DNA from: Acidimicrobiales bacterium | GTDB taxonomy: Bacteria > Actinomycetota > Acidimicrobiia > Acidimicrobiales > SZUA-35 | Length of the DNA: 64,000 bases | Assembly (NCBI GenBank): GCA_050633745.1 | Contig: JBOEHD010000063.1 | Coordinates: 48,346-112,345 of the forward strand | Direction of reading: 5' to 3' | In this document: positions 22,836 to 40,797 of the stretch, one piece after another | How positions within the stretch are numbered: position 1 is the first letter of the stretch | Layout of the letters: every line of letters starts with the position of its first letter | Program-made: the position numbers and the translations under genes | Notes under the pieces: model-generated | What the model saw: only the letters and a program-made list of their open reading frames with translations | Told to the model about the DNA's origin: nothing | The model's database searches: none

Positions 22836-23864
22836 TTAGCTGTTTAGCAGGGCCAGCATCCGGGCTGAGCCCTCGATCGTCTCTCGCAAACCCTGGTACA
22901 TGTCGTCGCGCTGCACGGCCGCCAGGTTACAGCTGACACCACTAAAGCCGAGGTTGAGCAGGTCCTGAACCTGAGCCGCACATTGCTCCGGGGTGCCGAC
23001 GATGGCGAACTTACGGGCCAGGTCAGCGTCGATGAGTCGCAGCATCTCCGGCGGGTCGAATCGATCGAGGTCGAAGTACCAGCCGGTGGCCTCATCGAGC
23101 GTTGCCACGATGGCCGCACGCCGCTCCGGATCGACCGGAGGGCCGTACTCGCCAAGGATGTCGAGATAGTGGGCGGCGAACCGCTTTACCGACTCGACGG
23201 CCAACGACTCGTCGTCGGAGATACACAGCGTGACCCGAGGCAGCACCTCGACTTCGGACACGTCACGACCGACCCGGGCCGCGCCCTCGGCCAACCAACC
23301 CCGGTAGCGGGCCACGATCTCCGAGGTCAGATGGCGAGCACCGACGAGGGCGATGTCGGCCACCTCACCAGCCAACCTCATCACCCCGGGGCTGCGAGTC
23401 CCAATGGCGATCGGTACCGGCTGGGTTGGAGGGCGGATCAGCTTGGCGCCATCGGTCGAAACCGTCTCACCATCGAGGTTGACGGTCTCGCCTGCTAGCA
23501 GGCCTCGCATGGCGGCGATCGTCTCCCGCAGCGTGTGAACCGGCCTCGGGTAATCGATGCCGAGCTCTTCAAGCCCAGCCCCAACACCGATGCCGCAGAA
23601 CGCCCGGCCGCCCGACAGCTCCTGCAACGTAGCCAGCGCCGAAGCGTGCACCGCGGCGTGCCGGGTGTAGGGGTTGGTGACCATCGAACCGATCTGGATG
23701 CGCTCGGTTCTGGCGGCGATCAACGCCTGCAGCTGATAGGTGTCGGGCCATAGAGCCACGCACGAGATGCCCAGCCGATCGAACCCTGCGTCCTCGACCA
23801 GGCATCCGAGTTCGACCGCTTCGGCCGGCGCCATGCCGGGCGTGATTTCTGCTTCAAAGGTCAT
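22836..23864 (-). CDS. LLM-class (F420/flavin-dependent) oxidoreductase, last gene of the long minus-strand operon
   Basis: LLM architecture (IQIGSMVTNPYTRH, GIGVGAG). The track ORF starts at 23927. I prefer the ATG at 23864 (MTFEAEI), which lies 4 nt after the upstream gene's stop (23869). Confidence 0.85.
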   Translation of the reverse strand: MTFEAEITPGMAPAEAVELGCLVEDAGFDRLGISCVALWPDTYQLQALIAARTERIQIGSMVTNPYTRHAAVHASALATLQELSGGRAFCGIGVGAGLEELGIDYPRPVHTLRETIAAMRGLLAGETVNLDGETVSTDGAKLIRPPTQPVPIAIGTRSPGVMRLAGEVADIALVGARHLTSEIVARYRGWLAEGAARVGRDVSEVEVLPRVTLCISDDESLAVESVKRFAAHYLDILGEYGPPVDPERRAAIVATLDEATGWYFDLDRFDPPEMLRLIDADLARKFAIVGTPEQCAAQVQDLLNLGFSGVSCNLAAVQRDDMYQGLRETIEGSARMLALLNS

Positions 23865-23868
23865 AGAT

Positions 23869-25257
23869 CTACAGCACCGGCCACTTGGACTTGTCCGGCA
23901 GACCCGACCTGGCGGTGATGGCCTCACCCGCCACTTGGCAACGGGAGTAGAAGGTGCCCTCGTCGATGGTGGTCATCTGACCGTTCTCCACGACCTTGTG
24001 GCCGTCGACGAATACGGTGTGTACCCCACGCCCATCGGCCGACCACACCAGCTGATTCATCACGTTCAGCAGCGGGCTCCACTCGGGGCGGTCGGTGTCG
24101 TGCAGCACCACGTCGGCCTTCTTACCGACCTCAAGCGAACCGATCGAGTCCTGCATCTGCATCGTCTTTGCCCCACCGATGGTTGCCATCTCGTAGGCCA
24201 TTTCGGCCGGGAACATCTGCGGATCCTGACGGGCATCTTTGAACAGCCCGGCGACAAGGTAGGTAGCCCGCATCAGGTCGGAGTAGTTCGAGGCGTTGTT
24301 GCCATCGGTGCCGATGCTGACGTTCATCCCCATCTGCATCATCTCCGGCATCTTGCCAACCTGGGTGACCCCGTAACTGACCTTGAGCGCGGTGGTCGGG
24401 CAGTGGGCCACCGACACGCCGGTCTCGGCCATGACCTGCAACTCGGAGTCGTCGACTTGCACACAGTGGGTGATGGCAACGTCGTCACGCAGCACTCCGA
24501 GCTCGGCCAGGTGGATCATCGGCCGCTGACCGAATTCAGCGACGAAACCCTCGGGGTCGAGCTTGGCTGGCGACATGTGAAAGCTCATGCCGACGCTGTG
24601 CTCATCGGCCAGCTCGCGGGCCGCCTTCCATAGCGGGTCGGAGCAGGTGGTGTGGCCGACCAGTATCGACCAGGCCCCAAGGCGCCCGTCGGCCACCGAG
24701 GCAAATTCCGTGAGCTGGCGCTGCAGGAAAGCGATCGACTGATCGGTGTCCTGCTTGTACACGTCGGGCTCGGGTGGCAGGTCCCACACCCACTTGCCGA
24801 CCCGGCCCCGGATGCCGACCTCGACCAAACCGTCGATTACCTCGTCGAGGAACCGGATGGTGCCAGCCTCAAGGAACGTGGTGGTGCCGGACTTCAACAT
24901 CTCGACCGCGGCCAGCTGGGCCGAGAGTCGCTCTTCGGCTGCGGTGTACACCGCATACAGCGGGCACAGCCACATGAAGACGTTCTCTTCGAACGGCGTG
25001 TCGTCTGGAACGTAGCCCCGGGTCAGCGGTTCACCGGTGATGTGAATGTGGGTGTTTACCAGCCCGGGGGTGACAACAAAACGGTCACCACCAACCACCT
25101 GTTTCGGCTTATACAGCTCTTCCAGCACCGAACGTTTGCCGACGCCGACGATTTCGCTGCCCCGAATGGCCACTGCGCCGTCGCGGATGATGTCGCGGGT
25201 GGCGTTGACGGTTACCACGTGGCTTCCGACTATGAGGGTGTCGATCGGTTCGGGCAT
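23869..25257 (-). CDS. Amidohydrolase-superfamily deaminase/chlorohydrolase-like enzyme
   Basis: PGLVNTHIHITGEP (the HxH metal site), FHMSP, THCVQVD and GSLEVGKKADVVLHD. Confidence 0.9.
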   Translation of the reverse strand: MPEPIDTLIVGSHVVTVNATRDIIRDGAVAIRGSEIVGVGKRSVLEELYKPKQVVGGDRFVVTPGLVNTHIHITGEPLTRGYVPDDTPFEENVFMWLCPLYAVYTAAEERLSAQLAAVEMLKSGTTTFLEAGTIRFLDEVIDGLVEVGIRGRVGKWVWDLPPEPDVYKQDTDQSIAFLQRQLTEFASVADGRLGAWSILVGHTTCSDPLWKAARELADEHSVGMSFHMSPAKLDPEGFVAEFGQRPMIHLAELGVLRDDVAITHCVQVDDSELQVMAETGVSVAHCPTTALKVSYGVTQVGKMPEMMQMGMNVSIGTDGNNASNYSDLMRATYLVAGLFKDARQDPQMFPAEMAYEMATIGGAKTMQMQDSIGSLEVGKKADVVLHDTDRPEWSPLLNVMNQLVWSADGRGVHTVFVDGHKVVENGQMTTIDEGTFYSRCQVAGEAITARSGLPDKSKWPVL

Positions 25258-25260
25258 GGG

Positions 25261-26343
25261 TTACCTCCGAGGTTTGGTGGCGACGAAACTCTGCTGAAAT
25301 CCGATCGGTTCGATCAGCCGTAGCTTCTCAAAACCGGCCTCCACCAGCCACTCGGAGAACTGCTGATGCGTGAAACAAAAGCCCTTCTCGGTGCTGGCCA
25401 TCATGGTCGTACCCATGATCACTGCGTGCGGGTTGAACTTCCGCTCGATGTCGGTGAAGTAGTCGGCCAAAACCAACCGGCCCTCCGGCTTAAGGGCGTC
25501 GAAGGCCCGCTCGATCAGCCGCTTGGCCCCGTCGGCTCCTTCGGTTCGACAGATGTGGCCCAGCACCACGATGTCGTAGTGATCGGGTTCGATGTCGATG
25601 GTGTGGAAGTCCCCGGGCCGGAACTCACAGCGGTCGGCAACCCCGTGCTCCTCGGTCATCTTCTCGGCGACGGCGATCACCCCGTCGAGGTCGTTGATCA
25701 CCGCGGTTCCGTCGGGGCAACCGTTCAGCATGGCGATGGCCCACGGCGCACCGCCGGCGCCGAGGTCGAGCACCCGCGGAGCCCGCAGCGCCGAGTACCG
25801 CATCTTCAGATCGGCTCGGGTGGCGCAGCGGAACATGGTGGTGAAGGTGCCTTCAACCAGCGGCACGTAGAACGCAACCGGGTCGTCTTCAATCGGGGTG
25901 GCGGGGCGACCGTTGCGCACCGTGTCGGCCAGGCGGGTCCAGTTCTCATGAGGCCCGGGGGCGACCGGGATAAGGGCTGACATCGAAGCCGGGCCGTCGG
26001 ATACCAGGTACCGTTTCGCCGCGTCGTTTAGCTCGTAGACATCGGTGAACTGATCGAGCAGTTCCAGCGCTACCACCGCGTCGAGCAACGAACGCACATG
26101 ATCGACCGGGGCGTCGATTTCGGCCGCGATTACTTCGACGGTTGTCGGGCCAAGCCGTTGCATGGTGTCGAACACGTCGAGCTCGAGCGCGGCCAGCAAG
26201 ATGTAGTACCGGCCGAGCCCTTCGATGGCGGCCCACACCGGAGCGGCGGCTGGAGGTTTGTAGTCGGTCCACGGTCGGCCCTTGTGGGCCATCGTGTGAG
26301 ACTTCTTCAACTCCGGATAGGGAGCATCGCGGGGCTCGAACAT
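25261..26343 (-). CDS. Class I SAM-dependent O-methyltransferase (family-2 type with an N-terminal dimerisation/winged-helix part)
   Basis: SAM motif VLDLGAGGAPWAIAML, plus GDFH and a downstream LKPEGRLVLADYF. Confidence 0.85.
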   Translation of the reverse strand: MFEPRDAPYPELKKSHTMAHKGRPWTDYKPPAAAPVWAAIEGLGRYYILLAALELDVFDTMQRLGPTTVEVIAAEIDAPVDHVRSLLDAVVALELLDQFTDVYELNDAAKRYLVSDGPASMSALIPVAPGPHENWTRLADTVRNGRPATPIEDDPVAFYVPLVEGTFTTMFRCATRADLKMRYSALRAPRVLDLGAGGAPWAIAMLNGCPDGTAVINDLDGVIAVAEKMTEEHGVADRCEFRPGDFHTIDIEPDHYDIVVLGHICRTEGADGAKRLIERAFDALKPEGRLVLADYFTDIERKFNPHAVIMGTTMMASTEKGFCFTHQQFSEWLVEAGFEKLRLIEPIGFQQSFVATKPRR

Positions 26344-26346
26344 CGG

Positions 26347-27381
26347 CTACGGGCGCAGCACGATCTTGCCGAAGAAGTCGCTGTTCATCATCTTGCCCTG
26401 GGCTTCGGCGGCATCGGCCAGAGCGTATTCGGAGTCGATGACAACCTCGAAGTCGCCGCCGCAGAACTTGTCCCACACCGGGCCGAACTCTTCTGGCCGG
26501 TAGGGGTCGGAGCCCATGATCTTGATGCCGGAGTGGAATAGGTAGCCAAGCGACGGGATCGTAGCTTCGTCGCCGGACGAGTTGCCGCAGTTGACCAGGC
26601 GTCCACGTATACCAAGACCGAACAGCGACGGGCCGAACAGCGCGGTGCCGACATGGTCAAACACCATGTTGACCCCTGCCCCCTGAGTGACCTCTCGGGC
26701 GAAGCCGGCAACATCGCCCGTGCGGTTGTTGAGCACATGGTCGGCGCCCAGAGCCAGCGCACGCTCGCACTTCTCGTCGGTGCCCGCGGTGGCCAGCACC
26801 GTTGCGCCTGCGTTCTTTGCCAGCTGGATGCCCGCGGTCGACACGCCGGAACCGGCGGCATGAATCATGACCGTCTCCCCCGGCTGCAGGCCACCGACGT
26901 CGAACAGGGCATGGTCGGCGGTGAGATAGCAGGTTGGGAAGGTGGCGGCGTGTTCGAATGGCATGTCATCGGGCACCCGATACACGTGGCTAGCCGGTGC
27001 TAGACATTTCTCGGCGTACCCGCCGTCGACGGTTCCGCCGATGATGCCCAGCTCACCGTATAGATCGCCCATGCCTGCGAGCTTTGAGTCTTCGGCAACG
27101 CCAGCCAGCGATGGATCGACGACGACTCGGTCGCCGACGGCCACCCCGGTAACCGAGGACCCAACCGCCGAAACGGTGCCCGCCACATCCATGCCTGCGA
27201 TGTGGGGATACTGGAACCCGGGCATCTGGAACCAGCCGTTGCGTTGCACCACGTCGAGCCGGTTGAGCGATGTGGCGGCGACATCGATCACTACATCGCC
27301 GGGACCGGGTTCGGGGTCTGCCACATCGGCATACCTGAAAACCTCGGGTCCACCTGCTTGTTCGTAGAACATTGCTTTCAC
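26347..27381 (-). CDS. Medium-chain dehydrogenase/reductase (zinc-type ADH / quinone oxidoreductase family)
   Basis: GAGSGVSTAGIQLAK Rossmann motif, a GroES-like N-terminal part (GDRVVVDP) and a C-terminal GKIVLRP. Confidence 0.9.
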   Translation of the reverse strand: MKAMFYEQAGGPEVFRYADVADPEPGPGDVVIDVAATSLNRLDVVQRNGWFQMPGFQYPHIAGMDVAGTVSAVGSSVTGVAVGDRVVVDPSLAGVAEDSKLAGMGDLYGELGIIGGTVDGGYAEKCLAPASHVYRVPDDMPFEHAATFPTCYLTADHALFDVGGLQPGETVMIHAAGSGVSTAGIQLAKNAGATVLATAGTDEKCERALALGADHVLNNRTGDVAGFAREVTQGAGVNMVFDHVGTALFGPSLFGLGIRGRLVNCGNSSGDEATIPSLGYLFHSGIKIMGSDPYRPEEFGPVWDKFCGGDFEVVIDSEYALADAAEAQGKMMNSDFFGKIVLRP

Positions 27382-27451
27382 TGGAGTAACCCCATTCGAT
27401 TTCGATGGCCGGTGTTGATGGTGATGGTTGTACTGATGATGGTTGTGTTGA

Positions 27452-28384
27452 TCATTTCAGTCCCCTGATGAACGGCCGGGCCAGTGCAGCGGGCGGCCGG
27501 ACACGGTGAGCGTAGACCGCCATGGCCAACAGGGTGACGACGAACGGCAACGACTGCAGCAGTTCACTATTCAACTGATAACCCAGACCCTGAATTGAAA
27601 GTCGGAACGACAGAGCGGCGGCGAACAGCACACACCCGGCGATCGTTCCCTTGAGGGCCCAACCGCCAAAGATCACTGCGGCGATAGCGATAAAGCCCCG
27701 GCCGCCGACGATCGAATCCTCAAACCGGCCGATCTGGACAAAGATCAGAAACGCCCCGCCGAGTCCCGAGGTCAAACCGGCGTAGTAGATGGTCTGACGA
27801 CGGCGCCGGTTGACATGGATGCCTGAAACATCGGCCGATTGTGGGTTCTCGCCGGAGGCTCGAACTTCCAAACCCCAGCGGGTGCGGTACATCAGCCACC
27901 ATGATGCTGGCACCACCAGATACAGCAAATAGAACGGCCATGGTTGGCCGAACAGCGCCTGGCCGATCAGTGGAATATCGCTCAGCAGCGGGATGTCCCA
28001 GGTGGTTGCCACTTTGGTCGACGGGGCGATCTCACGATCGAGGAACCCGGTGAGCCCGAAGACCAGGATGTTCAGGGTCAGCCCAACCACAAACTGGTCG
28101 GCCGCTAACCGGTGGCTCATCTCCGCCTGCACCGAAGCCACGATCATGCCTCCGAGAGCGCCACAGATCAGCCCAACGATCACCGAGTCGGTGATGTGGT
28201 AGCCGACCGCCGAGGCGAACGCCCCAGAAAGCAGCATGCCTTCGACGGAAATGTTGAGCGTGCCCGACCGTTCGGCAACCCACTCACCGGTGGCGGCGAA
28301 GGCCAGCAGGCCGGCGAAGAGCGCGGCGTTGATGTAGGTCGAGTCCGAGGTCAGAATGTCGCCAACCGCTCGTAGAAAGTCCAT
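27452..28384 (-). CDS. ABC transporter permease (BMP/simple-sugar type, second permease)
   Basis: Polytopic membrane protein of about 310 aa, adjacent to a second permease, a double-NBD ATPase and a BMP-type binding protein. Confidence 0.9.
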   Translation of the reverse strand: MDFLRAVGDILTSDSTYINAALFAGLLAFAATGEWVAERSGTLNISVEGMLLSGAFASAVGYHITDSVIVGLICGALGGMIVASVQAEMSHRLAADQFVVGLTLNILVFGLTGFLDREIAPSTKVATTWDIPLLSDIPLIGQALFGQPWPFYLLYLVVPASWWLMYRTRWGLEVRASGENPQSADVSGIHVNRRRRQTIYYAGLTSGLGGAFLIFVQIGRFEDSIVGGRGFIAIAAVIFGGWALKGTIAGCVLFAAALSFRLSIQGLGYQLNSELLQSLPFVVTLLAMAVYAHRVRPPAALARPFIRGLK

Positions 28385-28406
28385 GATTTATTCGCCTCCT
28401 CCCCCG

Positions 28407-32367: not shown

Positions 32368-32403
32368 TTTCTCTCCTCTTCCTAACCTCTTTGTGAGGAC
32401 TGC

Positions 32404-35159: not shown

Positions 35160-35165
35160 CGTCGT

Positions 35166-36752
35166 TTACTCGGGTGTGCCGTAGCCGCCGCCGCCGGGCA
35201 GCTCCAGCCGAACAACATCTTCGCCGGCAAGGCTAATCCTGGCCTGTGTCTCGACCGACTCGCCGTTGACTTTGAATGAGCCGGCTGCTCCGGCTTCGCC
35301 GCCAAACAGGCCCAGGGGCGGGGCCGAAAGGCGGCTGGTCACCGCGTTGAGCTGCCATGCTTTGTCGGTTGCCACGCTGAACTCGATGGTTTGCCCTAGG
35401 CCGCCCGGCTGGGCACCGGAGCCGCCCGAACCGGGCCGCAGCGACTTCTCACGGAACCGGATGGGGGCCGACGCCTCGACCACCTCGATCGGCACCGCCG
35501 ACACCCCGGTGGGGTAGGAGCAGGCGTTGAGCCCGGGCTTTGAGGAACGGGCGCCAACCCCACCGGCGTAGGTGAACATGGCGGTGATGAACGGGCTGCC
35601 ATCAGGATGGTTGCCATTAACCTGCATCGTCCACACCGCACCGGCGCCTTCGGCCATCGCCGCCTCCGGTCGAACCTGAGCCAGTGCCTTGAGCAGCGCG
35701 TTTGGCAGGAACATGCCGACGACGTGGCGGGCGGTTCCCGGCTGAGGGCTGACCGCATTCACAATCGAACCCTCGGGGGCCTTCACCAGGATCGGAGCCA
35801 GGCTGCCGTGGTTGTTTGGAATGTCGGGGTTCAGTACCGAACGCACGGTGAAGGTGGTGTAGGCGTGGGTGTAGTTCATCACCACGTTGATGCCCCACGG
35901 CGAGGCCTCGGAGGTGCCTTCGTAGTCGACGGTTATCTCGCCTGCGTCTGCATCGACCTGCAGTGAGCAGACGATGTCGATGGTGCTGCCGTCGGCCAGG
36001 TCGAGCACTGCGCTGGCGTCGTATGTGCCGCTCGGCAGTTCCCGAATGCTCTCACGAGTGGCCGCTTCGGAGCGGGTGATGATCTCGTCGGCCAGGCTCT
36101 CGATGTCTTGCAGATCGTGGGCGTCGCACAGGGTCGACAGTCGCTGGGCGCCGACCTCTCCCGATGCCATCTGGGCGTGGAGGTCACCGGCCATGTGATC
36201 GGGCTGACGCACGTTCGACATGATGAACTTCCACACGTCGTCGTTTCGTTCGCCGCGCTTCATCAGCTTGCAGATCGGGATCCACAGGCCTTCCTCGAAT
36301 ACGTCGCGCCCGCCAGCGCCGATGCCGTAGCCGCCGACGTCGGTGTGGTGAATGGTCGAGCCGAACAGGGCGATGACCTTGCCGTTGCGCCACGCCGGAA
36401 CCAGCACGGTCACGTCGAGCAACTGACCGGCGGTCTTGTACGGATCGTTGGTGATCAGAATGTCGCCCGGCTCGAGCGTGTCGACCGGATACTCATCGAG
36501 CATCTTCGATGCCCCGATGGCCAGGCTGTTGATGTGCCCGGGGGTTCCGGTTACCGCCTGAGCCACCATGCGGCCACGGCGATCGAATACCGCGTTTGCC
36601 AGGTCGCCGGCTTCTCGCACGATCGGTGAGAACGCCGAACGCTGTAGCGCCCTGGCCTGCTCATTGACCGTTGAGATCAGCGACTGCCAGAGAATCTCCA
36701 GCTCGATCGGATCGAACGGGGACGACGCGGGGCGGTCTTCGATGATGGTCAT
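35166..36752 (-). CDS. hyuB: Hydantoinase B / oxoprolinase family protein
   Basis: N-terminal DPIELEILWQSLISTVNEQARALQRSAFSPIVREAGDLANAVFD, typical of Hydantoinase_B. The ATG at 36752 overlaps the hyuA stop (ATGA). I reject the track start at 36809. Confidence 0.9.
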   Translation of the reverse strand: MTIIEDRPASSPFDPIELEILWQSLISTVNEQARALQRSAFSPIVREAGDLANAVFDRRGRMVAQAVTGTPGHINSLAIGASKMLDEYPVDTLEPGDILITNDPYKTAGQLLDVTVLVPAWRNGKVIALFGSTIHHTDVGGYGIGAGGRDVFEEGLWIPICKLMKRGERNDDVWKFIMSNVRQPDHMAGDLHAQMASGEVGAQRLSTLCDAHDLQDIESLADEIITRSEAATRESIRELPSGTYDASAVLDLADGSTIDIVCSLQVDADAGEITVDYEGTSEASPWGINVVMNYTHAYTTFTVRSVLNPDIPNNHGSLAPILVKAPEGSIVNAVSPQPGTARHVVGMFLPNALLKALAQVRPEAAMAEGAGAVWTMQVNGNHPDGSPFITAMFTYAGGVGARSSKPGLNACSYPTGVSAVPIEVVEASAPIRFREKSLRPGSGGSGAQPGGLGQTIEFSVATDKAWQLNAVTSRLSAPPLGLFGGEAGAAGSFKVNGESVETQARISLAGEDVVRLELPGGGGYGTPE

Positions 36753-38836
36753 GACTGGGACTCCCGGGTTGCGATCAGGCTGCCGTCTGCGGCCACTTCC
36801 ACACTCCAACCCGGTCGGATGACCGAGGTGGTTTCTCGTTCTTCGACCACAGCAGGGCCGGAAAAGGTTGCTCCGGCGCCAAGGCTTGAGCGGTCGTAGA
36901 CCGGCGCCTCAATGGCTGCAGATCCCCGGCCAAAAACCATGGGCCGAGTGCGATTAGGGGTTGGGTCGCCGGTGGCAGGGGCGAGGTTGTCGTCTGGCTC
37001 GACCACGGTTGTGGTGGCCGATGCCGATAGCCGCCAGGTGACCGCTTCTACCGGCACATCGGGAATCGCCATGCCGTAGATCCGGCGATACTCCTCTTCG
37101 AATGCGGTGGTCAGCTGCTCGGCGGTGGCGGGCCAGGCGTTGCCTTCACCGACCCAGATGGTGATCTCGTTTCCCTGACCGGCGTAGCGGGCGTCGACGC
37201 CGTAGCGGAACACCACCGCGTCTGCGGGAACGCCTGCGGCCAGCAGCACCCGCCGCCCCTCGTCTCGGAGTTCGTCGAGCAGCGCATCGCGCTCGGCGGG
37301 CTCGATCGAGTCGACCAGGCGAGGCAACGAACGGGCAAGATCGATTCGTACCGGTGAGACCAGGGTGCCGAACGCGGAGAGCACGCTGGCGTTGACCGGG
37401 AAGATCACCGTTTCCGCTTCGAGCAGCTCGGCAACACCGCAGGCGTGAACCGGGCCGGCGCCGCCGAAAGCGATCAGCGGAATGCCTCGCAGATCGATGC
37501 CCATCTCCACACCGTGCATGCTGGCTGCGGCGGCCATATTCTGATTGACCACTTCATGGATACCGGCCGCAGTATCGATCATGGCCAGGCCGAGCCCGCC
37601 GGCGACCGTGTTAGTTGCGCCTTCGGCGGCCGGCACGTCGAGCGGCATGTCGCCACCGAGGAACGCCGCCGGATCGAGCAGACCGAGCAACATGTCGGCG
37701 TCGGTCACCGCGGGGACGGTGCCGCCGCGGCCGTAGCTGGCAGGACCGGGATCGGCGCCTGCCGACTCGGGGCCAACCTTGAGCAATCCGAACTGATCGA
37801 CCCTGGCCAAACTGCCACCGCCGGCGCCTATCTCGACCAGATCGACCGATGGCACCGATACGGGGAAGCCCGAGCCCTTCTTGAAGCGGTAGGCCCGAGC
37901 GACCTCGAAGGTGTTTGTCAGTTCGGGTTCGCTGTCGACGATCAGGCAGGCCTTGGCCGTGGTGCCGCCCATATCGAAACACAGCAGCTGCTCAACACCG
38001 AGGCGCTTGGCGAACCAGCTGCCAGCCAGGGCCCCAGCGGCGGGCCCGGATTCGACGAGGCGGATAGGGCCTCGGGCCGCGTCCTCGGCCGATACCACGC
38101 CGCCATTAGACAGCATCATCAGTACCGAGCCGCCGAAGCCTTCGGCCGACAACCACTTCTGTAGCTCGTCGAGGTACGGGCCGATGACCGGCATCGTCGA
38201 GGCGTTACATGCCGTTGTGACCATGCGGGGGTACTCGCGGATCTGGGGCGAAATTTCGGCCGAGATGCAGACCGGAACGCCAAGCTCGGCCCGCAGGTAG
38301 TCGGCTACTTTGACCTCGTTAGCCCGGTTGACGTAGGAGTTCAGCAGGCAGATGGCCACCGATTCCACGTCGGCGGCCCGCAGCTGGGTGGCCAGTGCAG
38401 CCAGCGCGGCATCGCTCGGGTCGGTGAGGATCGAACCGTCGGCCGCGGTGCGCTCGTCGAGTTCGAAGGTGAGATCCCGGGGAATCGGAGGAGCGGGGAA
38501 CTCGATCTGCAGGTCGTACATGTCGTAGCGATGCTCGTCGCGGATCAGCAGCGTGTCGCCGAAGCCCTGGGTAGTGACCAGGCCTGCTCGGCCGGTTTTG
38601 CCCTCGATCAGCGCGTTGGTGATGAGGGTGGTGGCGTGGACGATCGGCGCGGTGATGTCGCTCGGGGCTACCCCGGCCTTGGCCAGCAGTTGGGTCACGC
38701 CGGCGCGCACCCCGTCGAGTGGGGCGGCGGGGGTGGTCAACGTTTTGTCGACCACTACTCGACCGGTCTCGCCGTCGAGCAAAACCACATCGGTAAACGT
38801 TCCACCGATATCGACCGCAAGGCGCCAGTCGGCCAT
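36749..38836 (-). CDS. hyuA: Hydantoinase A / oxoprolinase family protein (ATP-hydrolysing subunit)
   Basis: WRLAVDIGGTFTDVVLLD at the N-terminus, an internal FDMGGTTAK, and a length of 695 aa. Confidence 0.9.
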   Translation of the reverse strand: MADWRLAVDIGGTFTDVVLLDGETGRVVVDKTLTTPAAPLDGVRAGVTQLLAKAGVAPSDITAPIVHATTLITNALIEGKTGRAGLVTTQGFGDTLLIRDEHRYDMYDLQIEFPAPPIPRDLTFELDERTAADGSILTDPSDAALAALATQLRAADVESVAICLLNSYVNRANEVKVADYLRAELGVPVCISAEISPQIREYPRMVTTACNASTMPVIGPYLDELQKWLSAEGFGGSVLMMLSNGGVVSAEDAARGPIRLVESGPAAGALAGSWFAKRLGVEQLLCFDMGGTTAKACLIVDSEPELTNTFEVARAYRFKKGSGFPVSVPSVDLVEIGAGGGSLARVDQFGLLKVGPESAGADPGPASYGRGGTVPAVTDADMLLGLLDPAAFLGGDMPLDVPAAEGATNTVAGGLGLAMIDTAAGIHEVVNQNMAAAASMHGVEMGIDLRGIPLIAFGGAGPVHACGVAELLEAETVIFPVNASVLSAFGTLVSPVRIDLARSLPRLVDSIEPAERDALLDELRDEGRRVLLAAGVPADAVVFRYGVDARYAGQGNEITIWVGEGNAWPATAEQLTTAFEEEYRRIYGMAIPDVPVEAVTWRLSASATTTVVEPDDNLAPATGDPTPNRTRPMVFGRGSAAIEAPVYDRSSLGAGATFSGPAVVEERETTSVIRPGWSVEVAADGSLIATRESQS

Positions 38837-39219
38837 CAGCCTTCCCTCAGATCGTCACGGGGCGGGGCGAACACATCGAGAATCCAGCATTCGTCGTACT
38901 CGTCGTCACCGACGAAGATGCTGTCGCCGTGCCAAACGCTCGGCGGCGCAAGGTAAGCCTGATGTTCGTCAAGCACCGTTCTCTCGGCGTCATCGTCATC
39001 GCTCACGATGCGGAAGTCGAGGGCGCCGCGCACGATAACCCCGAGCTGCTCATGATCGTCGTGCTTGTGCAGGAACGAGCCGGTGGCACCGCCCTTGATC
39101 CGCCAGAAACAGAGCTGCAGATTTTCGCCGGTGATAACCCGGCGGCGGAAGCCTTCCCGGTCGGTCTCGACAAACTCGTCGTCTTCAAAGAAGTGGCAGT
39201 ACTGGTTTGCAAGGTTCAT
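38836..39219 (-). CDS. Cupin-domain protein
   Basis: About 127 aa with a cupin-like GSFLHKHDDHEQLGVIVRG...PPSVWHG pattern. Coupled on both sides (TGATG at 38836, a 4-nt overlap at 39216-39219). Confidence 0.7.
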   Translation of the reverse strand: MNLANQYCHFFEDDEFVETDREGFRRRVITGENLQLCFWRIKGGATGSFLHKHDDHEQLGVIVRGALDFRIVSDDDDAERTVLDEHQAYLAPPSVWHGDSIFVGDDEYDECWILDVFAPPRDDLREG

Positions 39220-39704
39220 TCGTTCGTCTCCAATAGGGCGCCGTATTTGCCCACGTCGGCCGCCAAGTCGAGAGGCCGGATGATCGCTTGATGCTCATCA
39301 TCGCCCCATAGATGCGGAGGCACCAGCCACATGACCTCAAATTCCAGGCCATCAGGATCTTTGCAGTACAGGCTCTTGTTCACGCCATGGTCCGAAGCCC
39401 CAGCCAGCGAGCCAGCAGCCCGGAGGCGTTCTTCCATTTCCACCAGTTGGCTCAGCGTGCTGACTTCCCAGGCAACGTGATACATGCCGACGGTTTCCTT
39501 GCCCGCGGCCGAGGGTCCTGCGCCGTCGCCGATGGTAAAGAAGGCGATGTCGTGGTGGTTGTCCGAGCTTGGTGCCCGCATGAAGGCGTACTTGCCTTCC
39601 TCACTCATGATGGTTTTGAAGTCGAGAACGTCTTCGTAAAACTCACGATGGCGGTCTGAGCTCCGCACGTACAACACGGCGTGATTCATGCCCTTTATGC
39701 TCAT
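39216..39704 (-). CDS. VOC-family protein resembling one-domain extradiol dioxygenases
   Basis: MNHAVLYVRSSDRHREFYEDVLDF, HHDIAFF, YHVAWEV and YCKDPDGLEFEVMW (His/His/Glu-type metal pattern). Confidence 0.8.
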   Translation of the reverse strand: MSIKGMNHAVLYVRSSDRHREFYEDVLDFKTIMSEEGKYAFMRAPSSDNHHDIAFFTIGDGAGPSAAGKETVGMYHVAWEVSTLSQLVEMEERLRAAGSLAGASDHGVNKSLYCKDPDGLEFEVMWLVPPHLWGDDEHQAIIRPLDLAADVGKYGALLETNE

Positions 39705-39717
39705 TTGGTTACGCTCA

Positions 39718-40710
39718 TTATTCGGCTCCTATCATCTCGGCGAAGCGGCGGCGCCACTCGACCGAAGGTCTATCCGACTGCACATTGACCAGCCCGGTCC
39801 GACCGAGCGGCAGGGTGCCGGAGACCTGTTCCAACATCTTCTTGTCTTCGGCACCGATGGCTCGGTCGAAGGCGATGATCTCTTCCGGGTCGGTGTTGTG
39901 ATCGTCGTTCCGCCACACCACAAAGGTAAACAGCGAATGCAGATCGTCGACCGGGGTGCTGCACAGCAACAGTATGTGCTCTAGCCCGTCGTCGTAAGCG
40001 ATGGTGCTTCGCACCGTAAACGGCAGGGCAAAGCCGGTGGTCATAACCCGGTGCACCGTTTCTTCCTCGCTACCGCTGACCGCAACCGCTTCGTCGGGGT
40101 TGGCGGCGTCGACCTCGTATCGGTAGCCGAAAAAGCCGTCGGCGAGTTCTTGCAGGCTCAGCTTCGGGACCATGGGGTCTTGGCCTGCGCCGAACGTGCC
40201 GGTGTGAACCCAGGGGAAGTGACTGAAGTCCATGAAGTTGTCGACCATACGGGGGGCCGAAGCCGCCCACGGTTCAACGCCGGTGTTTAGCCGTCTAAAC
40301 GCCGGGTCGTCGTCCTGGGCGATGGTTGGAATCTCGGTGGTCGGTTCGCCAGGGCAAACCCAGATCAGGCCGTACTTGTCGGCCACCTGTTTGGTCTCGA
40401 GATGGGCTGTCGGGGGAATCGCTGCGTCAGGGCCAGACGATGGCACGAGCGTGCATCGGCCCTCTGATCCGAACTCCCAGCCGTGGTAGGCGCACGAAAG
40501 CGTGCCGGCGTTGCTGGTGCCGATCGACAGTGGTGCTTCGCGGTGGGGGCAGCGGTCAGCCGCGGCGATCGGCTCACCATCGGGGCCTCGCCACAGCACT
40601 AGATCCTCGCCAAGTAGCCGAATCGGGCGGGGTGAGACATTGAGGTCGGACGAATCAACGACCGGATACCAGGCCCCTCGCAATGACTCACTTTGTACGA
40701 ATGACGTCAT
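39718..40710 (-). CDS. Rieske [2Fe-2S] oxygenase, phthalate-family / PaO-KshA-VanA-like; first gene of the long operon
   Basis: CPHREAPLS...CAYHGWEF and the iron motif NFMDFSHFPWVH. I prefer the ATG at 40710 (MTSFVQSE), preceded by GGGAG. The track start at 40797 would bury the operator-like palindrome in coding sequence. Confidence 0.85.
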   Translation of the reverse strand: MTSFVQSESLRGAWYPVVDSSDLNVSPRPIRLLGEDLVLWRGPDGEPIAAADRCPHREAPLSIGTSNAGTLSCAYHGWEFGSEGRCTLVPSSGPDAAIPPTAHLETKQVADKYGLIWVCPGEPTTEIPTIAQDDDPAFRRLNTGVEPWAASAPRMVDNFMDFSHFPWVHTGTFGAGQDPMVPKLSLQELADGFFGYRYEVDAANPDEAVAVSGSEEETVHRVMTTGFALPFTVRSTIAYDDGLEHILLLCSTPVDDLHSLFTFVVWRNDDHNTDPEEIIAFDRAIGAEDKKMLEQVSGTLPLGRTGLVNVQSDRPSVEWRRRFAEMIGAE

Positions 40711-40776: not shown

Positions 40777-40797
40777 TTGGTCTGACCAACTGACCAA
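40777..40797. promoter_or_regulatory. Putative GntR-family operator upstream of the 15-gene operon
   Basis: TTGGTCTGACCAACTGACCAA. It has a TTGGT-N3-ACCAA inverted repeat plus a tandem second CTGACCAA. The 17-mer GGTCTGACCAACTGACC recurs at 42157-42173 beside the GntR gene. The site lies in the 110-bp divergent gap between 40710 and 40821. Confidence 0.5.

What the first reader, a model, noticed from the sequence alone, without database searches (positions are those of the whole stretch)
22836..40710. About 18 kb, 15-gene single-strand operon mixing aromatic-oxygenase, ATP-dependent hydantoinase-type, CoA-ligase, deaminase, methyltransferase and BMP-importer functions, matching no pathway I recognise
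Fifteen consecutive minus-strand genes run with gaps of 0-70 nt, and many pairs have overlapping stop/start codons (ATGA, GTGA, TGATG). The order is:
1. PaO/KshA-type Rieske oxygenase.
2. One-domain extradiol-dioxygenase-like VOC protein.
3. Cupin.
4. HyuA.
5. HyuB.
6. ANL CoA ligase.
7. Second Rieske oxygenase (alpha-subunit type).
8. BMP-family binding lipoprotein.
9. Double-NBD ATPase.
10. First permease.
11. Second permease.
12. MDR reductase.
13. O-methyltransferase.
14. Amidohydrolase-superfamily deaminase/chlorohydrolase.
15. LLM oxidoreductase.

The unit has its own candidate operator and an adjacent GntR regulator. The gene content suggests uptake of a polar, possibly N-heterocyclic or purine/nucleoside-like substrate, since BMP-type binding proteins usually serve those. 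That would be followed by hydroxylation and ring cleavage, ATP-dependent ring opening or carboxylation, CoA activation and deamination.

I know of no characterised pathway with this composition. One loose analogy is creatinine or N-methylhydantoin breakdown (deaminase plus ATP-dependent hydantoinase), but the carbamoylsarcosine amidase step is missing and the oxygenases would be unexplained.
Basis: inference. Interest (0 to 1): 0.7.

Follow-up and report, generated by a model that had tools for sequence, protein, structure and literature searches.

The report
Orphan N-heterocycle breakdown operon, Acidimicrobiia
This is a real, repressor-controlled set of about 20 genes, conserved in dozens of marine and sponge-associated actinobacteria, that most likely imports and breaks down a flat nitrogen-containing ring compound (possibly vitamin-B2-like) by a route nobody has yet characterised.

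Summary
The 15 co-directional genes are real: six junctions have overlapping stop/start codons and the other gaps are 3-79 nt. The family calls mostly hold.

The unit is larger than reported, about 20920-42673 and 20 genes. The terminal LLM gene is specific to this lineage.

A FadR-type operator (TGGTCNGACCA) sits in front of the operon and of the GntR gene, and recurs at the same places in related genomes.

Conservation:
- Gene order is kept in 46 of 48 full-length loci from Acidimicrobiia species.
- Diverged versions exist in cultured Embleya, Thermocatellispora and Streptomyces, and in Dormibacterota.
- No protein reaches an NCBIfam equivalog cut-off.
- No paper describes the cluster.

Nine of its gene families lie inside Streptomyces clusters that match, by domain content and protein sizes, the lumichrome (vitamin B2) catabolic operon described in 2025. 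This window lacks that operon's P450, molybdenum hydroxylase and TPP enzymes. It has instead an ATP-dependent HyuAB, a one-domain extradiol dioxygenase, two alpha-only Rieske oxygenases and a CoA ligase.

Best reading: an uncharacterised, ATP-assisted pathway for breaking down a planar N-heterocycle. The substrate is unproven. The creatinine analogy is not supported.

The parts
20920..22278 (+). Second TRZ/ATZ-type amidohydrolase ('amidohyd2'), convergent with the operon
   Evidence: Pfam Amidohydro_1. Nearest PDB entries are MTA/SAH-type deaminases 4dyk, 4gbd and 4f0r, E about 1e-38. Homologues of 46-53% identity sit in the Embleya, Thermocatellispora and Streptomyces clusters.
22289..22816 (+). 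VOC2, a VOC-fold protein without the usual N-terminal metal-binding His
   Evidence: Pfam Glyoxalase. A homologue is present on the opposite strand in 25 of 48 full-length loci. Conserved residues listed.
22836..23864 (-). g15, LLM-class (F420-type) oxidoreductase; lineage-specific addition to the operon
   Evidence: Pfam Bac_luciferase; best NCBIfam hits are F420 Mer-like and below cut-off. Found in 0 of 48 related loci. Start ATG 23864, 4 nt after the g14 stop.
23869..25257 (-). g14, TRZ/ATZ-type amidohydrolase (deaminase or ring hydrolase; possibly an SAH/MTA-type deaminase serving the methyltransferase)
   Evidence: Pfam Amidohydro_1. Best NCBIfam hit is 5'-deoxyadenosine deaminase, 296 bits against a cut-off of 522. 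Nearest PDB entries 4dzh and 4f0r, E about 1e-44. Found in 29 of 48 loci; 64% identical to the Streptomyces NBC_00841 homologue, which also sits next to MDR and OMT genes.
25261..26343 (-). g13, family-2 SAM-dependent methyltransferase with dimerisation domain
   Evidence: Pfam Methyltransf_2 + Dimerisation. Nearest PDB entries RedM, MfnG, DSYB and DnrK. The SAM-binding motif VLDLGAGGA is visible in the sequence. Found in 44 of 48 loci.
26347..27381 (-). g12, MDR (zinc-ADH fold, quinone-oxidoreductase-like) reductase
   Evidence: Pfam ADH_N/ADH_zinc_N. Found in 44 of 48 loci. 42-45% identical to the MDR genes in the Embleya and Streptomyces clusters.
27452..28384 (-). g11, ABC permease 2
   Evidence: Pfam BPD_transp_2; found in 47 of 48 loci.
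28407..29504 (-). g10, ABC permease 1 (start GTG 29504, GTGA overlap with the g09 stop)
   Evidence: Pfam BPD_transp_2; start choice; found in 47 of 48 loci.
29501..31177 (-). g09, ABC ATPase with two nucleotide-binding domains
   Evidence: Pfam ABC_tran in two stretches. 51-55% identical to the ATPases of the Embleya and Streptomyces clusters.
31174..32367 (-). g08, lipoprotein substrate-binding protein with BMP/PnrA fold and an acidic D/E/T-rich linker
   Evidence: Lipobox VAAC at C27 and six invariant or nearly invariant cysteines. The AlphaFold model (pLDDT 82.8) matches PnrA, AtzT, RfuA, Lbp, BmpD and 4p98 at E 1e-15 to 1e-13. Pfam Bmp reaches only E=0.023.
32404..33588 (-). g07, alpha-only Rieske oxygenase
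   Evidence: Pfam Rieske + Ring_hydroxyl_A. CxH...CxxH and the E/D-x3-D-x2-H-x4-H iron motif are intact. PDB similarity to CntA, Stc2 and phthalate dioxygenase covers only residues ~22-220. Found in 47 of 48 loci.
33585..35159 (-). g06, ANL-family acyl-CoA ligase
   Evidence: Pfam AMP-binding. Best NCBIfam hit is CaiC-like, 320 bits against a cut-off of 651. Nearest PDB entries are malonyl-CoA and oxalyl-CoA ligases. Found in 43 of 48 loci; absent from L005, L013, L022 and L089.
35166..36752 (-). g05, HyuB subunit of an ATP-dependent hydantoinase/oxoprolinase-type enzyme
   Evidence: Pfam Hydantoinase_B, 478 bits. Median 84% identity across the loci. 71-76% identical to Embleya, Thermocatellispora, Rhodococcus and Dormibacterota orthologues.
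36749..38836 (-). g04, HyuA subunit
   Evidence: All three Hydantoinase_A domains. PDB scores: N-methylhydantoinase 376 bits, caprolactamase 335 bits, acetophenone carboxylase 232 bits, acetone carboxylase 205 bits.
38836..39219 (-). g03, small metal-binding cupin, translationally coupled to HyuA
   Evidence: Cupin_2 E=7e-5. H53, E57 and H97 conserved in 62 sequences. Nearest PDB entries 4e2g and KdgF. It lies directly upstream of HyuA in Rhodococcus, in Dormibacterota and in the unclassified assemblies L088 and L089.
39216..39704 (-). g02, one-domain extradiol-dioxygenase-type VOC
   Evidence: Pfam Glyoxalase. Invariant H8, H50, H51, H76, Y113 and E121/E123 in 55 sequences. By my own knowledge, their spacing matches the 2-His-1-carboxylate triad plus catalytic His and Tyr of BphC-type enzymes. 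61-66% identical in Embleya and Dormibacterota.
39718..40710 (-). g01, VanA_C-type alpha-only Rieske oxygenase
   Evidence: Pfam Rieske + VanA_C. Full-length PDB similarity to the N-demethylases NdmA/NdmB and to SxtT/SxtDIOX, E about 1e-39. Motifs intact. Found in 27 of 48 loci.
40778..40788 (.). Operator TGGTCTGACCA inside the palindrome CTCTTGGTC-N9-GACCAAGAG, followed by further GGTCAG repeats, between SnoaL and g01
   Evidence: Sequence read. Enrichment. The same motif lies in front of g01 or g02 in related loci.
40821..41276 (+).
   Evidence: Pfam SnoaL_2/SnoaL. 61% identical to the family found in 15 related loci. Fused to a VOC domain in L089.
41304..42041 (-). GntR/FCD-family regulator
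   Evidence: Pfam GntR + FCD. 50% identical orthologues sit next to the cluster in Embleya and Dormibacterota.
42113..42166 (.). Pair of operator sites (TTGTCTGACCA and TGGTCTGACCA) between the GntR gene and VOC2b
   Evidence: Paired sites upstream of the GntR gene in many loci.
42191..42673 (+).
   Evidence: Pfam Glyoxalase E=1e-12. 67% identical to the family found in 14 loci. H17, H91 and E141 conserved. 45-47% identical homologues in the Embleya, Thermocatellispora and Streptomyces clusters.

Best explanation
This is a substrate-inducible catabolic regulon for a polar, planar N-heterocycle. The leading candidate class is a flavin-, alloxazine- or pteridine-like compound (riboflavin, lumichrome or a relative).

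Proposed sequence. Only the gene content, the fold, the motifs and the conservation are shown; every enzymatic step is inferred.
1. The GntR/FCD repressor sits on TGGTCNGACCA operators in front of its own gene, of VOC2b and of the main operon, and is released by the substrate or an intermediate.
2. A lipoprotein binding protein with the BMP fold and a CUT2-type ABC system (g08-g11) import the compound.
3. The TRZ/ATZ amidohydrolases (amidohyd2, g14) hydrolyse exocyclic amidine or ureido groups, by analogy with the LumM step of lumichrome breakdown. Alternatively, g14 may remove the SAH made by the methyltransferase.
4. HyuAB spends ATP to hydrolyse a resonance-stabilised cyclic amide or ureide. 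In the known lumichrome pathway the corresponding ring opening is reversible and reaches only 40% conversion.
5. The two alpha-only Rieske oxygenases hydroxylate or N-dealkylate. This produces a vicinal-diol ring that the one-domain extradiol dioxygenase g02 cleaves.
6. The cupin, the SnoaL-like protein, VOC2/VOC2b, the MDR and (in relatives) an AKR and aldolases tidy up the ring-fission products. The CoA ligase activates a carboxylate product where it is present.
For: **Organisation and regulation**
- Tight, translationally coupled operon.
- Operator enriched in the window and conserved in position in 36 loci.
- Gene order kept in 46 of 48 full-length loci from different Acidimicrobiia species, with median identities of 65-84%.

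**Diverged versions elsewhere**
- Embleya has VOC 66%, GntR 50%, cupin 48%, HyuA 71%, HyuB 75%, CoA ligase 55%, ATPase 55%, MDR 44% and amidohyd2 53%.
- Thermocatellispora and Dormibacterota also carry versions.

**Substrate class**
- The binding-protein model hits only BMP-fold proteins at the top. Their ligands are nucleosides, guanine/hydroxyatrazine and riboflavin.
- The Streptomyces canus cluster L091 carries homologues of nine window families: MDR 42%, amidohyd2 47%, SBP 29%, ATPase 51%, permeases 40% and 49%, AKR 52%, VOC2b 45% and SnoaL 44%.
- In L091 these lie between a 733-aa self-sufficient P450, ADH, ALDH, FAH, a 387-aa amidohydrolase, a 257-aa HpcH aldolase and a 118-aa cupin.
- That content and those sizes match the published lum operon: LumU 81 kDa, LumT/N, LumM 52 kDa, lumOPQR, LumV, LumW 40 kDa, LumX 26 kDa and LumY 16 kDa (PMC12746152).
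- The Embleya binding protein, which serves a HyuAB-type cluster, is 54-56% identical to the binding proteins of these lum-like clusters.

**Enzyme features**
- g02 keeps a complete extradiol catalytic set.
- Both Rieske proteins keep their cluster and iron motifs.
- HyuA scores higher against lactam/hydantoin hydrolases than against carboxylases, and HyuB has the short, hydrolase-type length.
- A caprolactamase-like pair next to Rieske genes is strongly induced in skatole degradation (bioRxiv 10.1101/2024.12.29.630347).
Against: - No substrate was tested and no enzyme is an equivalog of a characterised one.
- The window's binding protein is only 29-33% identical to the Streptomyces and Embleya ones, so the ligand may differ.
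- The signature lum genes are absent: P450 LumU, TPP decarboxylase LumK/L, molybdenum hydroxylase LumJ and the Rieske alpha-beta pair with its ferredoxin and reductase. I found them neither in the window genes scanned with Pfam nor among the recurrent genes of the Acidimicrobiia loci.
- The lum assignment of the Streptomyces clusters rests on domain content and protein sizes only. I could not obtain the N. simplex sequences.
- No reductase for the Rieske oxygenases lies in the window.
- A methyltransferase is an odd member of a catabolic route.
- By my own knowledge, dissolved flavins in seawater are very dilute, which is hard to square with a 20-gene regulon kept in many marine lineages.
- Both amidohydrolases are nearest to adenosine-type deaminases. 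Soil relatives add FGGY or APH kinases and DeoC-family aldolases. Both points fit a nucleoside equally well.
Confidence: 0.45

Rival explanations
1. Catabolism of a purine-type base or a modified or N-methylated nucleoside. The BMP importer takes up the nucleoside or base. The two adenosine-deaminase-like amidohydrolases deaminate it or open a ring. The NdmA-like Rieske N-demethylates or hydroxylates it. A reductase dearomatises the ring, and HyuAB opens the resulting hydantoin or ureide ring.
For: - The top structural relatives of the binding protein bind nucleosides and guanine.
- Both amidohydrolases are nearest to MTA/SAH/adenosine deaminases.
- g01 aligns over its full length with the methylxanthine N-demethylases NdmA and NdmB.
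- Soil relatives carry FGGY, APH or PfkB kinases and DeoC-family aldolases that could handle a pentose.
- The reductive urate pathway shows the same logic of reduction, then amidohydrolase ring cleavage, then hydantoinase. That paper also notes LLM/F420 reductases next to SsnA in some phyla (PMC12507026). Here an LLM gene follows g14.
Against: - A purine offers no ring for the conserved extradiol dioxygenase g02, nor for the metal-type VOC2b.
- g14 and amidohyd2 score far below the SsnA cut-offs (140 and 119 bits against 444).
- The LLM gene is absent from all 48 related loci.
- No nucleoside hydrolase or phosphorylase, xanthine dehydrogenase or uricase turned up in the cluster.
- g01 is missing from 21 of 48 loci.
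Confidence: 0.18
2. Two or more independent pathways that merely lie side by side. One is an importer/MDR/OMT/amidohydrolase module. The other is a VOC/cupin/HyuAB/(CoA ligase) module that handles a common small lactam.
For: - The modules occur separately. Streptomyces NBC_00841 and S. canus have the first without HyuAB.
- Rhodococcus sp. WS4 and Bosea pNBC550 have cupin-HyuAB with other transporters.
- Thermocatellispora uses an MFS carrier, and an SBP_bac_5 binding-protein gene adjoins the Dormibacterota cluster.
Against: - Both modules are kept in one fixed order in 39-46 of 48 Acidimicrobiia loci.
- They are found together again, in a different arrangement, in Embleya and in L088 and L089.
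- The importer sits in the middle of the operon with overlapping stop/start codons on one side.
- One operator motif serves several promoters of the region.
Confidence: 0.15
3. HyuAB is a ketone carboxylase of the acetophenone/acetone-carboxylase kind, with the cupin as its small subunit. A Rieske enzyme hydroxylates an alkyl side chain. MDR/AKR oxidise the alcohol to a methyl ketone. HyuAB carboxylates the ketone, the CoA ligase activates the beta-keto acid, and a thiolase cleaves it.
For: - HyuAB followed directly by a CoA ligase mirrors the acetophenone carboxylase plus benzoylacetate-CoA ligase pair (own knowledge; PMC5214803 was listed).
- A thiolase and a second CoA ligase follow the cluster in 14 sponge-symbiont loci.
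- The Rhodococcus context has thiolase, DUF35 and SDR genes.
Against: - HyuA scores 376 and 335 bits against hydantoinase and caprolactamase, but 232 and 205 bits against the carboxylases.
- HyuB is about 530 aa, the length of hydrolases, not the roughly 700 aa of carboxylase subunits. It scores 72 bits against ApcD.
- The CoA ligase is missing from several otherwise complete clusters.
Confidence: 0.1
4. Creatinine degradation by creatinine deaminase and ATP-dependent N-methylhydantoinase. This is how hyuA/hyuB are usually read in sponge metagenomes.
For: - The best PDB hit of HyuA is an N-methylhydantoinase.
- Amidohydrolase-superfamily deaminases are present.
- Sponge studies count hyuAB as creatinine genes (PMC6742649), and many carriers here are sponge symbionts.
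Against: - No isochorismatase-type N-carbamoylsarcosine amidase, creatininase or sarcosine oxidase appears in the window genes scanned with Pfam or among the recurrent genes of the related loci.
- The Rieske enzymes, the extradiol dioxygenase, the MDR, the OMT, SnoaL, the VOCs and the CoA ligase would have no role.
- Orthologues of 71-76% identity sit in soil bacteria next to kinases and aldolases.
- The deaminases are not of the cytosine-deaminase type.
Confidence: 0.04

Closest known systems
Lumichrome (riboflavin) catabolic lum operon of Nocardioides simplex (Sinha et al. 2025, PMC12746152) and lum-like clusters of Streptomyces canus and Streptomyces sp. NBC_00841
   Same: - Both are large actinobacterial operons for a fused N-heterocycle. 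Both have a four-gene importer, TRZ/ATZ-size amidohydrolases, Rieske oxygenation, extradiol cleavage, a small cupin and (in relatives) pyruvate aldolases.
- Nine window families have homologues of 29-52% identity inside the S. canus lum-like cluster.
   Different: - The window lacks the self-sufficient P450, the molybdenum hydroxylase, the two-subunit TPP decarboxylase, the Rieske beta subunit, the ferredoxin and reductase, and the FAH.
- It has HyuAB, a one-domain extradiol enzyme, alpha-only Rieske oxygenases, a CoA ligase and a methyltransferase. None of these is reported for lum: the words ATP, CoA and hydantoinase do not occur in the paper.
- The binding proteins are only about 30% identical.
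- Homology to the N. simplex proteins themselves was not tested.
ATP-dependent lactam/hydantoin hydrolases of the HyuA/HyuB family (N-methylhydantoinase, 5-oxoprolinase, caprolactamase CapAB)
   Same: Same two-subunit architecture, same domain set and same lengths. These are the best PDB and NCBIfam matches.
   Different: - Scores are well below the equivalog cut-offs: CapA 477 of 1000 bits and CapB 174 of 1000 bits.
- The pair is always accompanied by a small cupin and usually by a VOC dioxygenase. That is not reported for the characterised members I know of (own knowledge).
Reductive uric acid pathway of E. coli and Clostridia (PMC12507026)
   Same: Same logic for breaking an N-heterocycle: a reductase, then a TRZ/ATZ-related amidohydrolase that opens a ring, then a hydantoin-ring hydrolase. 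That paper notes LLM/F420 reductases beside SsnA in some phyla.
   Different: The enzymes there are SsnA, a dihydropyrimidinase-type HyuA, XdhD and YgfK. None is orthologous here, and that pathway is anaerobic and uses no oxygenases.
BMP/PnrA-family nucleoside, guanine/hydroxyatrazine (AtzT) and riboflavin (RfuA) ABC importers
   Same: Same fold, a lipoprotein anchor, a double-NBD ATPase and two BPD_transp_2 permeases.
   Different: Only 15-18% identical to any solved member, and below the Pfam Bmp threshold. It carries a long acidic linker and six conserved cysteines. Its ligand is unknown.
Skatole (skt) cluster of Rhodococcus ruber R1
   Same: A caprolactamase-like pair lies beside a Rieske oxygenase in an induced heterocycle-degradation cluster.
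   Different: That cluster is built around an aniline-dioxygenase set (glutamine-synthetase-like and amidotransferase-like proteins) and a two-component flavin monooxygenase. None of these is found here.

Membership tests
Creatinine / N-methylhydantoin pathway | ATP-dependent N-methylhydantoinase (HyuA + HyuB) | tested here: inconclusive
   The family is present, but no equivalog exists to test against and the substrate is unknown.
Creatinine / N-methylhydantoin pathway | N-carbamoylsarcosine amidase (isochorismatase family) and sarcosine oxidase or dehydrogenase nearby | tested here: not met
   Not found in the window genes scanned with Pfam or among the recurrent families of the 80 loci.
Creatinine / N-methylhydantoin pathway | Cytosine-deaminase-type creatinine deaminase | tested here: not met
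   Both amidohydrolases are nearest to MTA/SAH-type deaminases and TRZ/ATZ enzymes.
Lumichrome (lum) operon | Self-sufficient P450 LumU, TPP decarboxylase LumK/L and molybdenum hydroxylase LumJ. The authors of PMC12746152 treated these as essential markers (Fig. S73). | tested here: not met
   No such domains in the window genes scanned with Pfam or among the recurrent genes of the Acidimicrobiia loci.
Lumichrome (lum) operon | Rieske alpha + beta dioxygenase with ferredoxin and reductase (LumABCD) | tested here: not met
   There are two alpha-only Rieske proteins and no beta subunit, ferredoxin or reductase in the window.
Lumichrome (lum) operon | Extradiol catechol dioxygenase | tested here: met
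   g02 has invariant H8, H76 and E121/E123 plus H50/H51 and Y113.
Lumichrome (lum) operon | Four transport genes and an amidine-hydrolysing amidohydrolase of about 52 kDa | tested here: inconclusive
   The window proteins are homologous to those of the Streptomyces lum-like clusters. The N. simplex sequences themselves could not be obtained.
BMP/PnrA-type ABC importer | BMP-fold lipoprotein binding protein | tested here: met
   Foldseek top hits are PnrA, AtzT, RfuA and BmpD at E about 1e-15, and the lipobox is present. The Pfam Bmp score of 14 bits is below the 24-bit cut-off.
BMP/PnrA-type ABC importer | Fused double-NBD ATPase plus two BPD_transp_2 permeases | tested here: met
   Pfam. NCBIfam hits to CUT2-type and 'putative B6' ABC components, all below cut-off.
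HyuA/HyuB ATP-dependent hydrolases (as opposed to acetone/acetophenone carboxylases) | Three HyuA domains, a HyuB of about 520-590 aa, and higher similarity to hydrolases than to carboxylases | tested here: met
HyuA/HyuB ATP-dependent hydrolases (as opposed to acetone/acetophenone carboxylases) | ATP-dependent hydrolysis of a cyclic amide | not testable with these tools
   Needs an enzyme assay.
Rieske non-haem iron oxygenases | CxH-x15-17-CxxH cluster motif and 2-His iron motif | tested here: met
   g01: C83...H105 and D186...H198. g07: C91...H113 and E204...H216.
Rieske non-haem iron oxygenases | Cognate reductase or ferredoxin encoded nearby | tested here: not met
   None among the window genes scanned with Pfam. 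A ferredoxin lies beside the cluster in L056, L083 and L084.
GntR/FCD-regulated operon | GntR + FCD domains and a palindromic TGGT-N3-ACCA-type operator at the regulated promoters | tested here: met

The most novel reading that the evidence does not exclude
This is a P450- and molybdenum-independent, ATP-driven route for breaking down vitamin B2-type heterocycles (riboflavin, lumichrome or a related lumazine or pterin). It would be widespread in pelagic and sponge-associated Acidimicrobiia and also present in soil actinomycetes and Dormibacterota. HyuAB would carry out a new reaction: ATP-coupled opening of a fused uracil or quinoxalinone lactam ring. That would be the first flavin or pteridine catabolic pathway known in marine bacteria. 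It would also mean that the 'N-methylhydantoinase' genes counted as creatinine-degradation markers in sponge metagenomes are partly misassigned.
Probability: 0.22. Interest if true: 0.8.

Novelty: new variant of a known kind. Interest (0 to 1): 0.6.

Why it matters
- **An orphan pathway in abundant bacteria.** The cluster is one of the better conserved multi-gene units in marine, sediment and sponge-symbiont Acidimicrobiia. It is kept in 46 of 48 full-length loci from different species, and it has no assigned substrate.
- **A possible annotation error.** Its hyuA/hyuB genes are annotated 'N-methylhydantoinase' and are counted as creatinine-degradation capacity in sponge-holobiont studies. The gene context argues against that reading.
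- **A link to a pathway solved only in 2025.** Partial homology to lumichrome-type clusters suggests that variant routes for flavin-like or related heterocycles exist well beyond soil Nocardioides. The authors of that study anticipated variants but had found the known clusters only in soil bacteria.
- **Directly testable.** Diverged versions are present in cultured strains: Embleya sp. NBC_00896, Thermocatellispora tengchongensis and many Streptomyces. A defined operator and repressor give a simple read-out for finding the inducer.

Tried and rejected
**Equivalog naming.** NCBIfam on 18 proteins gave no hit at or above a curated cut-off.

**Exact-sequence lookup.** The binding protein is not on record in the contig collection.

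**Literature.** Searches on homarine/Rieske, Acidimicrobiia/hydantoinase/sponge, hydantoinase/Rieske/CoA ligase, Poriferisocius, caprolactamase, N-methylhydantoinase structure, oxoprolinase/Rieske/purine and lumichrome/hydantoinase found no paper describing this cluster.

**Betaine or carnitine substrate.** I considered this because g07 resembles GbcA, CntA and Stc2 and g06 resembles CaiC. I set it aside because the g07 similarity covers only the Rieske domain and the start of the catalytic domain (residues ~22-220), and because the importer is BMP-type.

**DMSP cleavage or acrylate route** (cupin as a lyase, MDR as AcuI, OMT resembling DsyB). I set it aside because the cupin is nearest to KdgF and 4e2g and the OMT is nearer to RedM than to DSYB.

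**Other ideas considered only from memory, with nothing here to test them.** These were opine or Amadori lactams, mycosporine-like amino acids, tetrapyrrole-derived maleimides, biotin, kynurenate, indole-3-acetate and the AI-2 (lsr) system.

**Finding the N. simplex lum importer.** I searched with the Streptomyces binding protein. The top 120 hits were all other actinomycetes, with no Nocardioides. That search did, however, lead to the S. canus lum-like cluster.

**g15 against the RcaE-like LLM.** The window's LLM is unrelated to the LLM of Streptomyces NBC_00841.

**Internal promoters and terminators.** The scan found nothing above chance.

Full report
**Observation.** The window comes from an Acidimicrobiales metagenome-assembled genome. 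The binding protein is 100% identical to NCBI locus ACRBK7_09240.

With the most plausible start codons, the junctions are as follows:
- 4-nt overlaps at g02/g03, g04/g05, g06/g07, g08/g09 and g09/g10.
- A 1-nt overlap at g03/g04.
- Gaps of 3-79 nt elsewhere.

Base composition is even across the block and its flanks. Terminator-like and promoter-like sites inside the block do not exceed chance.

Pfam confirms the family calls, with one exception. The binding protein scores only E=0.023 against Bmp. A model built from 30 homologues (pLDDT 82.8) has the BMP/PnrA fold. Its top Foldseek hits are PnrA with nucleosides, AtzT, RfuA with riboflavin, Lbp with guanosine, BmpD and 4p98, at 15-18% identity.

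No protein reaches an NCBIfam equivalog cut-off.

**True extent and regulation.** tblastn of the window proteins against 80 genome loci fetched around binding-protein homologues gave these counts in the 48 loci of at least 18 kb:

| Gene set | Loci with it (of 48) |
|---|---|
| Cupin, HyuA, HyuB, Rieske g07 and the four transport genes, together | 46 |
| The same plus g02, g06, g12 and g13 | 39 |
| g01 | 27 |
| g14 | 29 |
| LLM g15 | 0 |

Gene order is the same throughout.

- A SnoaL-like gene at 40821-41276 (+), lying between the GntR gene and g01.
- A metal-type VOC gene (VOC2b) at 42191-42673 (+), divergent from the GntR gene.
- The convergent pair VOC2 (22289-22816) and a second TRZ/ATZ amidohydrolase (20920-22278).

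These rest.

A FadR-like palindrome, TGGTCTGACCA, lies at 40778-40788 between SnoaL and g01. It recurs at 42156-42166, with a one-mismatch copy at 42113-42123, between the GntR gene and VOC2b. Exact copies of TGGTCNGACCA occur in 36 of the 80 loci, mostly in front of GntR, g01, g02 or VOC2.

The unit is therefore a GntR/FCD regulon of about 20 genes spanning about 20920-42673. The flanking genes are unrelated: kinases, a chemoreceptor, a 5'-nucleotidase, HNH, GNAT, a nitroreductase, a thioesterase, TauD and OmpA.

**Individual proteins.**
- **g01** aligns over its full length with the N-demethylases NdmA and NdmB and with SxtT/SxtDIOX (E about 1e-39).
- **g07** resembles CntA, Stc2 and phthalate dioxygenase only over its first ~220 residues. 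This says little about its substrate.
- Both Rieske proteins keep the cluster motif and the iron motif. No reductase lies in the window.
- **g02** has invariant H8, H50, H51, H76, Y113 and E121/E123 in 55 sequences. By my own knowledge of the family, this spacing matches the metal triad plus catalytic His and Tyr of BphC-type extradiol dioxygenases.
- **The cupin** keeps H53, E57 and H97, and **VOC2b** keeps H17, H91 and E141.
- **HyuA** scores 376 bits against an N-methylhydantoinase and 335 bits against caprolactamase. It scores 232 and 205 bits against acetophenone and acetone carboxylase. HyuB has the short, hydrolase-type length.
- **Both amidohydrolases** are nearest to MTA/SAH/adenosine-type deaminases.
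- **The methyltransferase** is nearest to RedM, MfnG, DSYB and DnrK.
- **The CoA ligase** gives no informative closest relative.

**Relatives outside Acidimicrobiia.** HyuB orthologues of at least 76% identity to the Embleya HyuB used as query are widespread. The window's own HyuB is 71-76% identical to those of Embleya, Thermocatellispora, Rhodococcus and Dormibacterota.

- **Embleya sp. NBC_00896** carries a rearranged version of the cluster. Identities are VOC 66%, GntR 50%, cupin 48%, binding protein 33%, ATPase 55%, MDR 44%, HyuA 71%, HyuB 75%, CoA ligase 55% and amidohyd2 53%. It also has VOC2, VOC2b, SnoaL and an AKR. Extra genes are an FGGY kinase, a DeoC-family aldolase, a 2-oxoacid:ferredoxin oxidoreductase and an amidase.
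- **Thermocatellispora** and a **Dormibacterota** genome show the same families with an MFS carrier or an adjoining SBP_bac_5 binding-protein gene. They add RraA-like or HpcH aldolases and FGGY or APH kinases.
- **L088 and L089**, two assemblies whose taxonomy I did not establish, show further variants. One lacks the CoA ligase and has a VOC-SnoaL fusion.
- **Rhodococcus sp. WS4** and **Bosea pNBC550** have only cupin-HyuAB with other transporters.
- **Streptomyces sp. NBC_00841** has the importer, MDR, OMT, g14 (64% identical), amidohyd2, VOC2b and SnoaL, but no HyuAB.

The cluster is therefore modular. In Acidimicrobiia, however, the modules are fixed in one operon.

**Link to a known pathway.** The binding protein of the Streptomyces cluster has close homologues in many cultured actinomycetes.

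In Streptomyces canus the locus reads as follows: self-sufficient P450 (733 aa), ADH, ALDH, PucR-type regulator, MDR, TRZ/ATZ amidohydrolase (464 aa), flavin reductase, Bmp binding protein, ATPase, two permeases, AKR, VOC, SnoaL, FAH, Amidohydro_1 (387 aa), HpcH aldolase (257 aa), cupin (118 aa) and IclR.

This content and these sizes fit the lumichrome catabolic operon of Nocardioides simplex, reconstituted in 2025 (PMC12746152):

| Lum protein | Description in the paper |
|---|---|
| LumU | single-polypeptide P450, 81 kDa |
| LumT, LumN | oxidise 7-hydroxymethyl- and 7-formyl-lumichrome |
| LumM | 52 kDa, hydrolyses an amidine |
| lumOPQR | four transport genes |
| LumV | FAH |
| LumW | 40 kDa hydrolase |
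| LumX | 26 kDa aldolase |
| LumY | 16 kDa cupin |

Streptomyces NBC_00841 also has the P450 fusion (768 aa).

Nine window families have homologues inside the S. canus cluster at 29-52% identity. The Embleya binding protein, which serves a HyuAB-type cluster, is 54-56% identical to the lum-like ones. The window's own binding protein is only 29-33% identical to them.

I could not obtain the N. simplex sequences. The lum identity of the Streptomyces clusters is therefore inferred from domain architecture and protein sizes, not from alignment.

**Interpretation.** These points are shown:
- A conserved, operator-controlled operon.
- A BMP-fold importer.
- Intact catalytic motifs in two Rieske oxygenases and in an extradiol dioxygenase.
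- A hydrolase-like HyuAB.
- Partial homology to lum-like clusters.

The rest is inferred. The substrate would be a planar N-heterocycle. Amidohydrolases would remove amidine or ureido nitrogen. HyuAB would use ATP to open a stabilised cyclic amide. In the lum pathway the corresponding ring opening by LumH is reversible and reaches only 40% conversion, so ATP coupling would make sense for a dilute substrate. Rieske hydroxylation or N-dealkylation would then set up extradiol cleavage.

The window lacks the genes that the lum authors treat as essential markers: P450, TPP decarboxylase, molybdenum hydroxylase and the Rieske alpha-beta set. It is therefore not a lum operon. At most it is a different route for a related compound.

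A purine- or nucleoside-type substrate remains a serious rival. In its favour are the adenosine-type deaminases, the NdmA-like g01, and the kinases and DeoC-family aldolases in soil relatives. The reductive urate pathway also supplies the same reduce-then-hydrolyse logic (PMC12507026). Against it, a purine gives the conserved extradiol dioxygenase nothing to cleave.

Three other readings are less likely:
- A ketone-carboxylase reading of HyuAB.
- A two-pathway juxtaposition.
- The creatinine reading used in sponge metagenomics (PMC6742649).

The reasons are given under the rival explanations.

**Verdict.** The creatinine analogy and the 15-gene boundary do not hold.

The cluster is a new variant of a known kind: a regulated catabolic operon for an N-heterocycle. 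Its substrate is unknown, but it is readily testable in cultured Embleya, Thermocatellispora and Streptomyces strains.

Noticed in passing
L083 (Streptomyces sp. NBC_00841, NZ_CP108854.1 636000-685000): 430-3286 and 9496-36004: An LLM-family monooxygenase (547 aa), a PfkB kinase and a flavin reductase lie about 6 kb from a lum-like gene set (Rieske alpha-beta, extradiol VOC, FAH, amidohydrolases, BMP importer, P450 fusion). By my own knowledge, that trio is the composition of the Microbacterium rca riboflavin-to-lumichrome genes. The lum paper states that no strain is known in which rcaE is colocalised with lumichrome genes. If this LLM is an RcaE orthologue, this strain would be such a case.
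   Followed up: partly
window 31174-32367 (residues 28-75 and cysteines C170, C172, C217, C218, C307, C359): After its lipobox, the binding protein carries a D/E/T-rich acidic linker of about 45 residues. It also has six invariant or nearly invariant cysteines, arranged as two vicinal pairs plus two single residues. Neither the linker nor the cysteines have been compared with the solved BMP proteins. Their role is unknown.
   Followed up: no
window 40731-40797: Besides the palindromic operator there are five GGTCAG copies within about 65 nt upstream of g01: two within the palindrome and three more spaced 12-13 nt apart. This could mean cooperative binding of several repressor dimers.
   Followed up: no
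L089 17832-18581: A single 249-aa protein fuses a VOC (Glyoxalase_6) domain to a SnoaL domain. In the window and in most relatives, VOC2b and SnoaL are separate genes. The fusion suggests they act together.
   Followed up: no
14 loci, e.g. L007 14733-15752 and L002 14765-15799: Many Acidimicrobiia versions carry an extra aldo/keto reductase gene (about 340 aa) between permease 2 and the MDR gene. In the window only a 70-nt gap is found there. Homologues of 50-59% identity sit in the Embleya, Thermocatellispora, Dormibacterota and S. canus clusters.
   Followed up: partly
L022, L023, L024, L036 (e.g. L036 15004-17752): Some loci carry a second pair of paralogues of the two Rieske genes (g07-like and g01-like) next to VOC2. 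This suggests several position-specific oxygenations or N-dealkylations.
   Followed up: no
Sponge-symbiont loci (Poriferisocius group), e.g. L048 853-2124 and 18370-20979: This clade lacks g01 and, within the stretch fetched, the GntR gene. It has an amidohydrolase_2-type protein (by sequence inspection only, not scanned) and an SDR upstream. Downstream it has a second CoA ligase and a thiolase.
   Followed up: partly
window 13446-15170 (-) and 15164-18852 (-): A 5'-nucleotidase/metallophosphoesterase gene lies about 6 kb from the regulon. It follows two large ORFs (849 and 380 aa) with no Pfam match at E <= 1e-5. It could supply nucleosides for uptake, but there is no evidence of linkage.
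   Followed up: no
window 10016-11419 (-): An ORF with a methyl-accepting chemotaxis signalling domain lies next to an ECF-type sigma factor gene and a Ser/Thr kinase gene in this Acidimicrobiales genome.
   Followed up: no
window 45505-46290 (-): A TauD/TfdA-family dioxygenase gene lies 3 kb beyond the regulon, next to an OmpA-domain protein. No operator motif was found near it.
   Followed up: no
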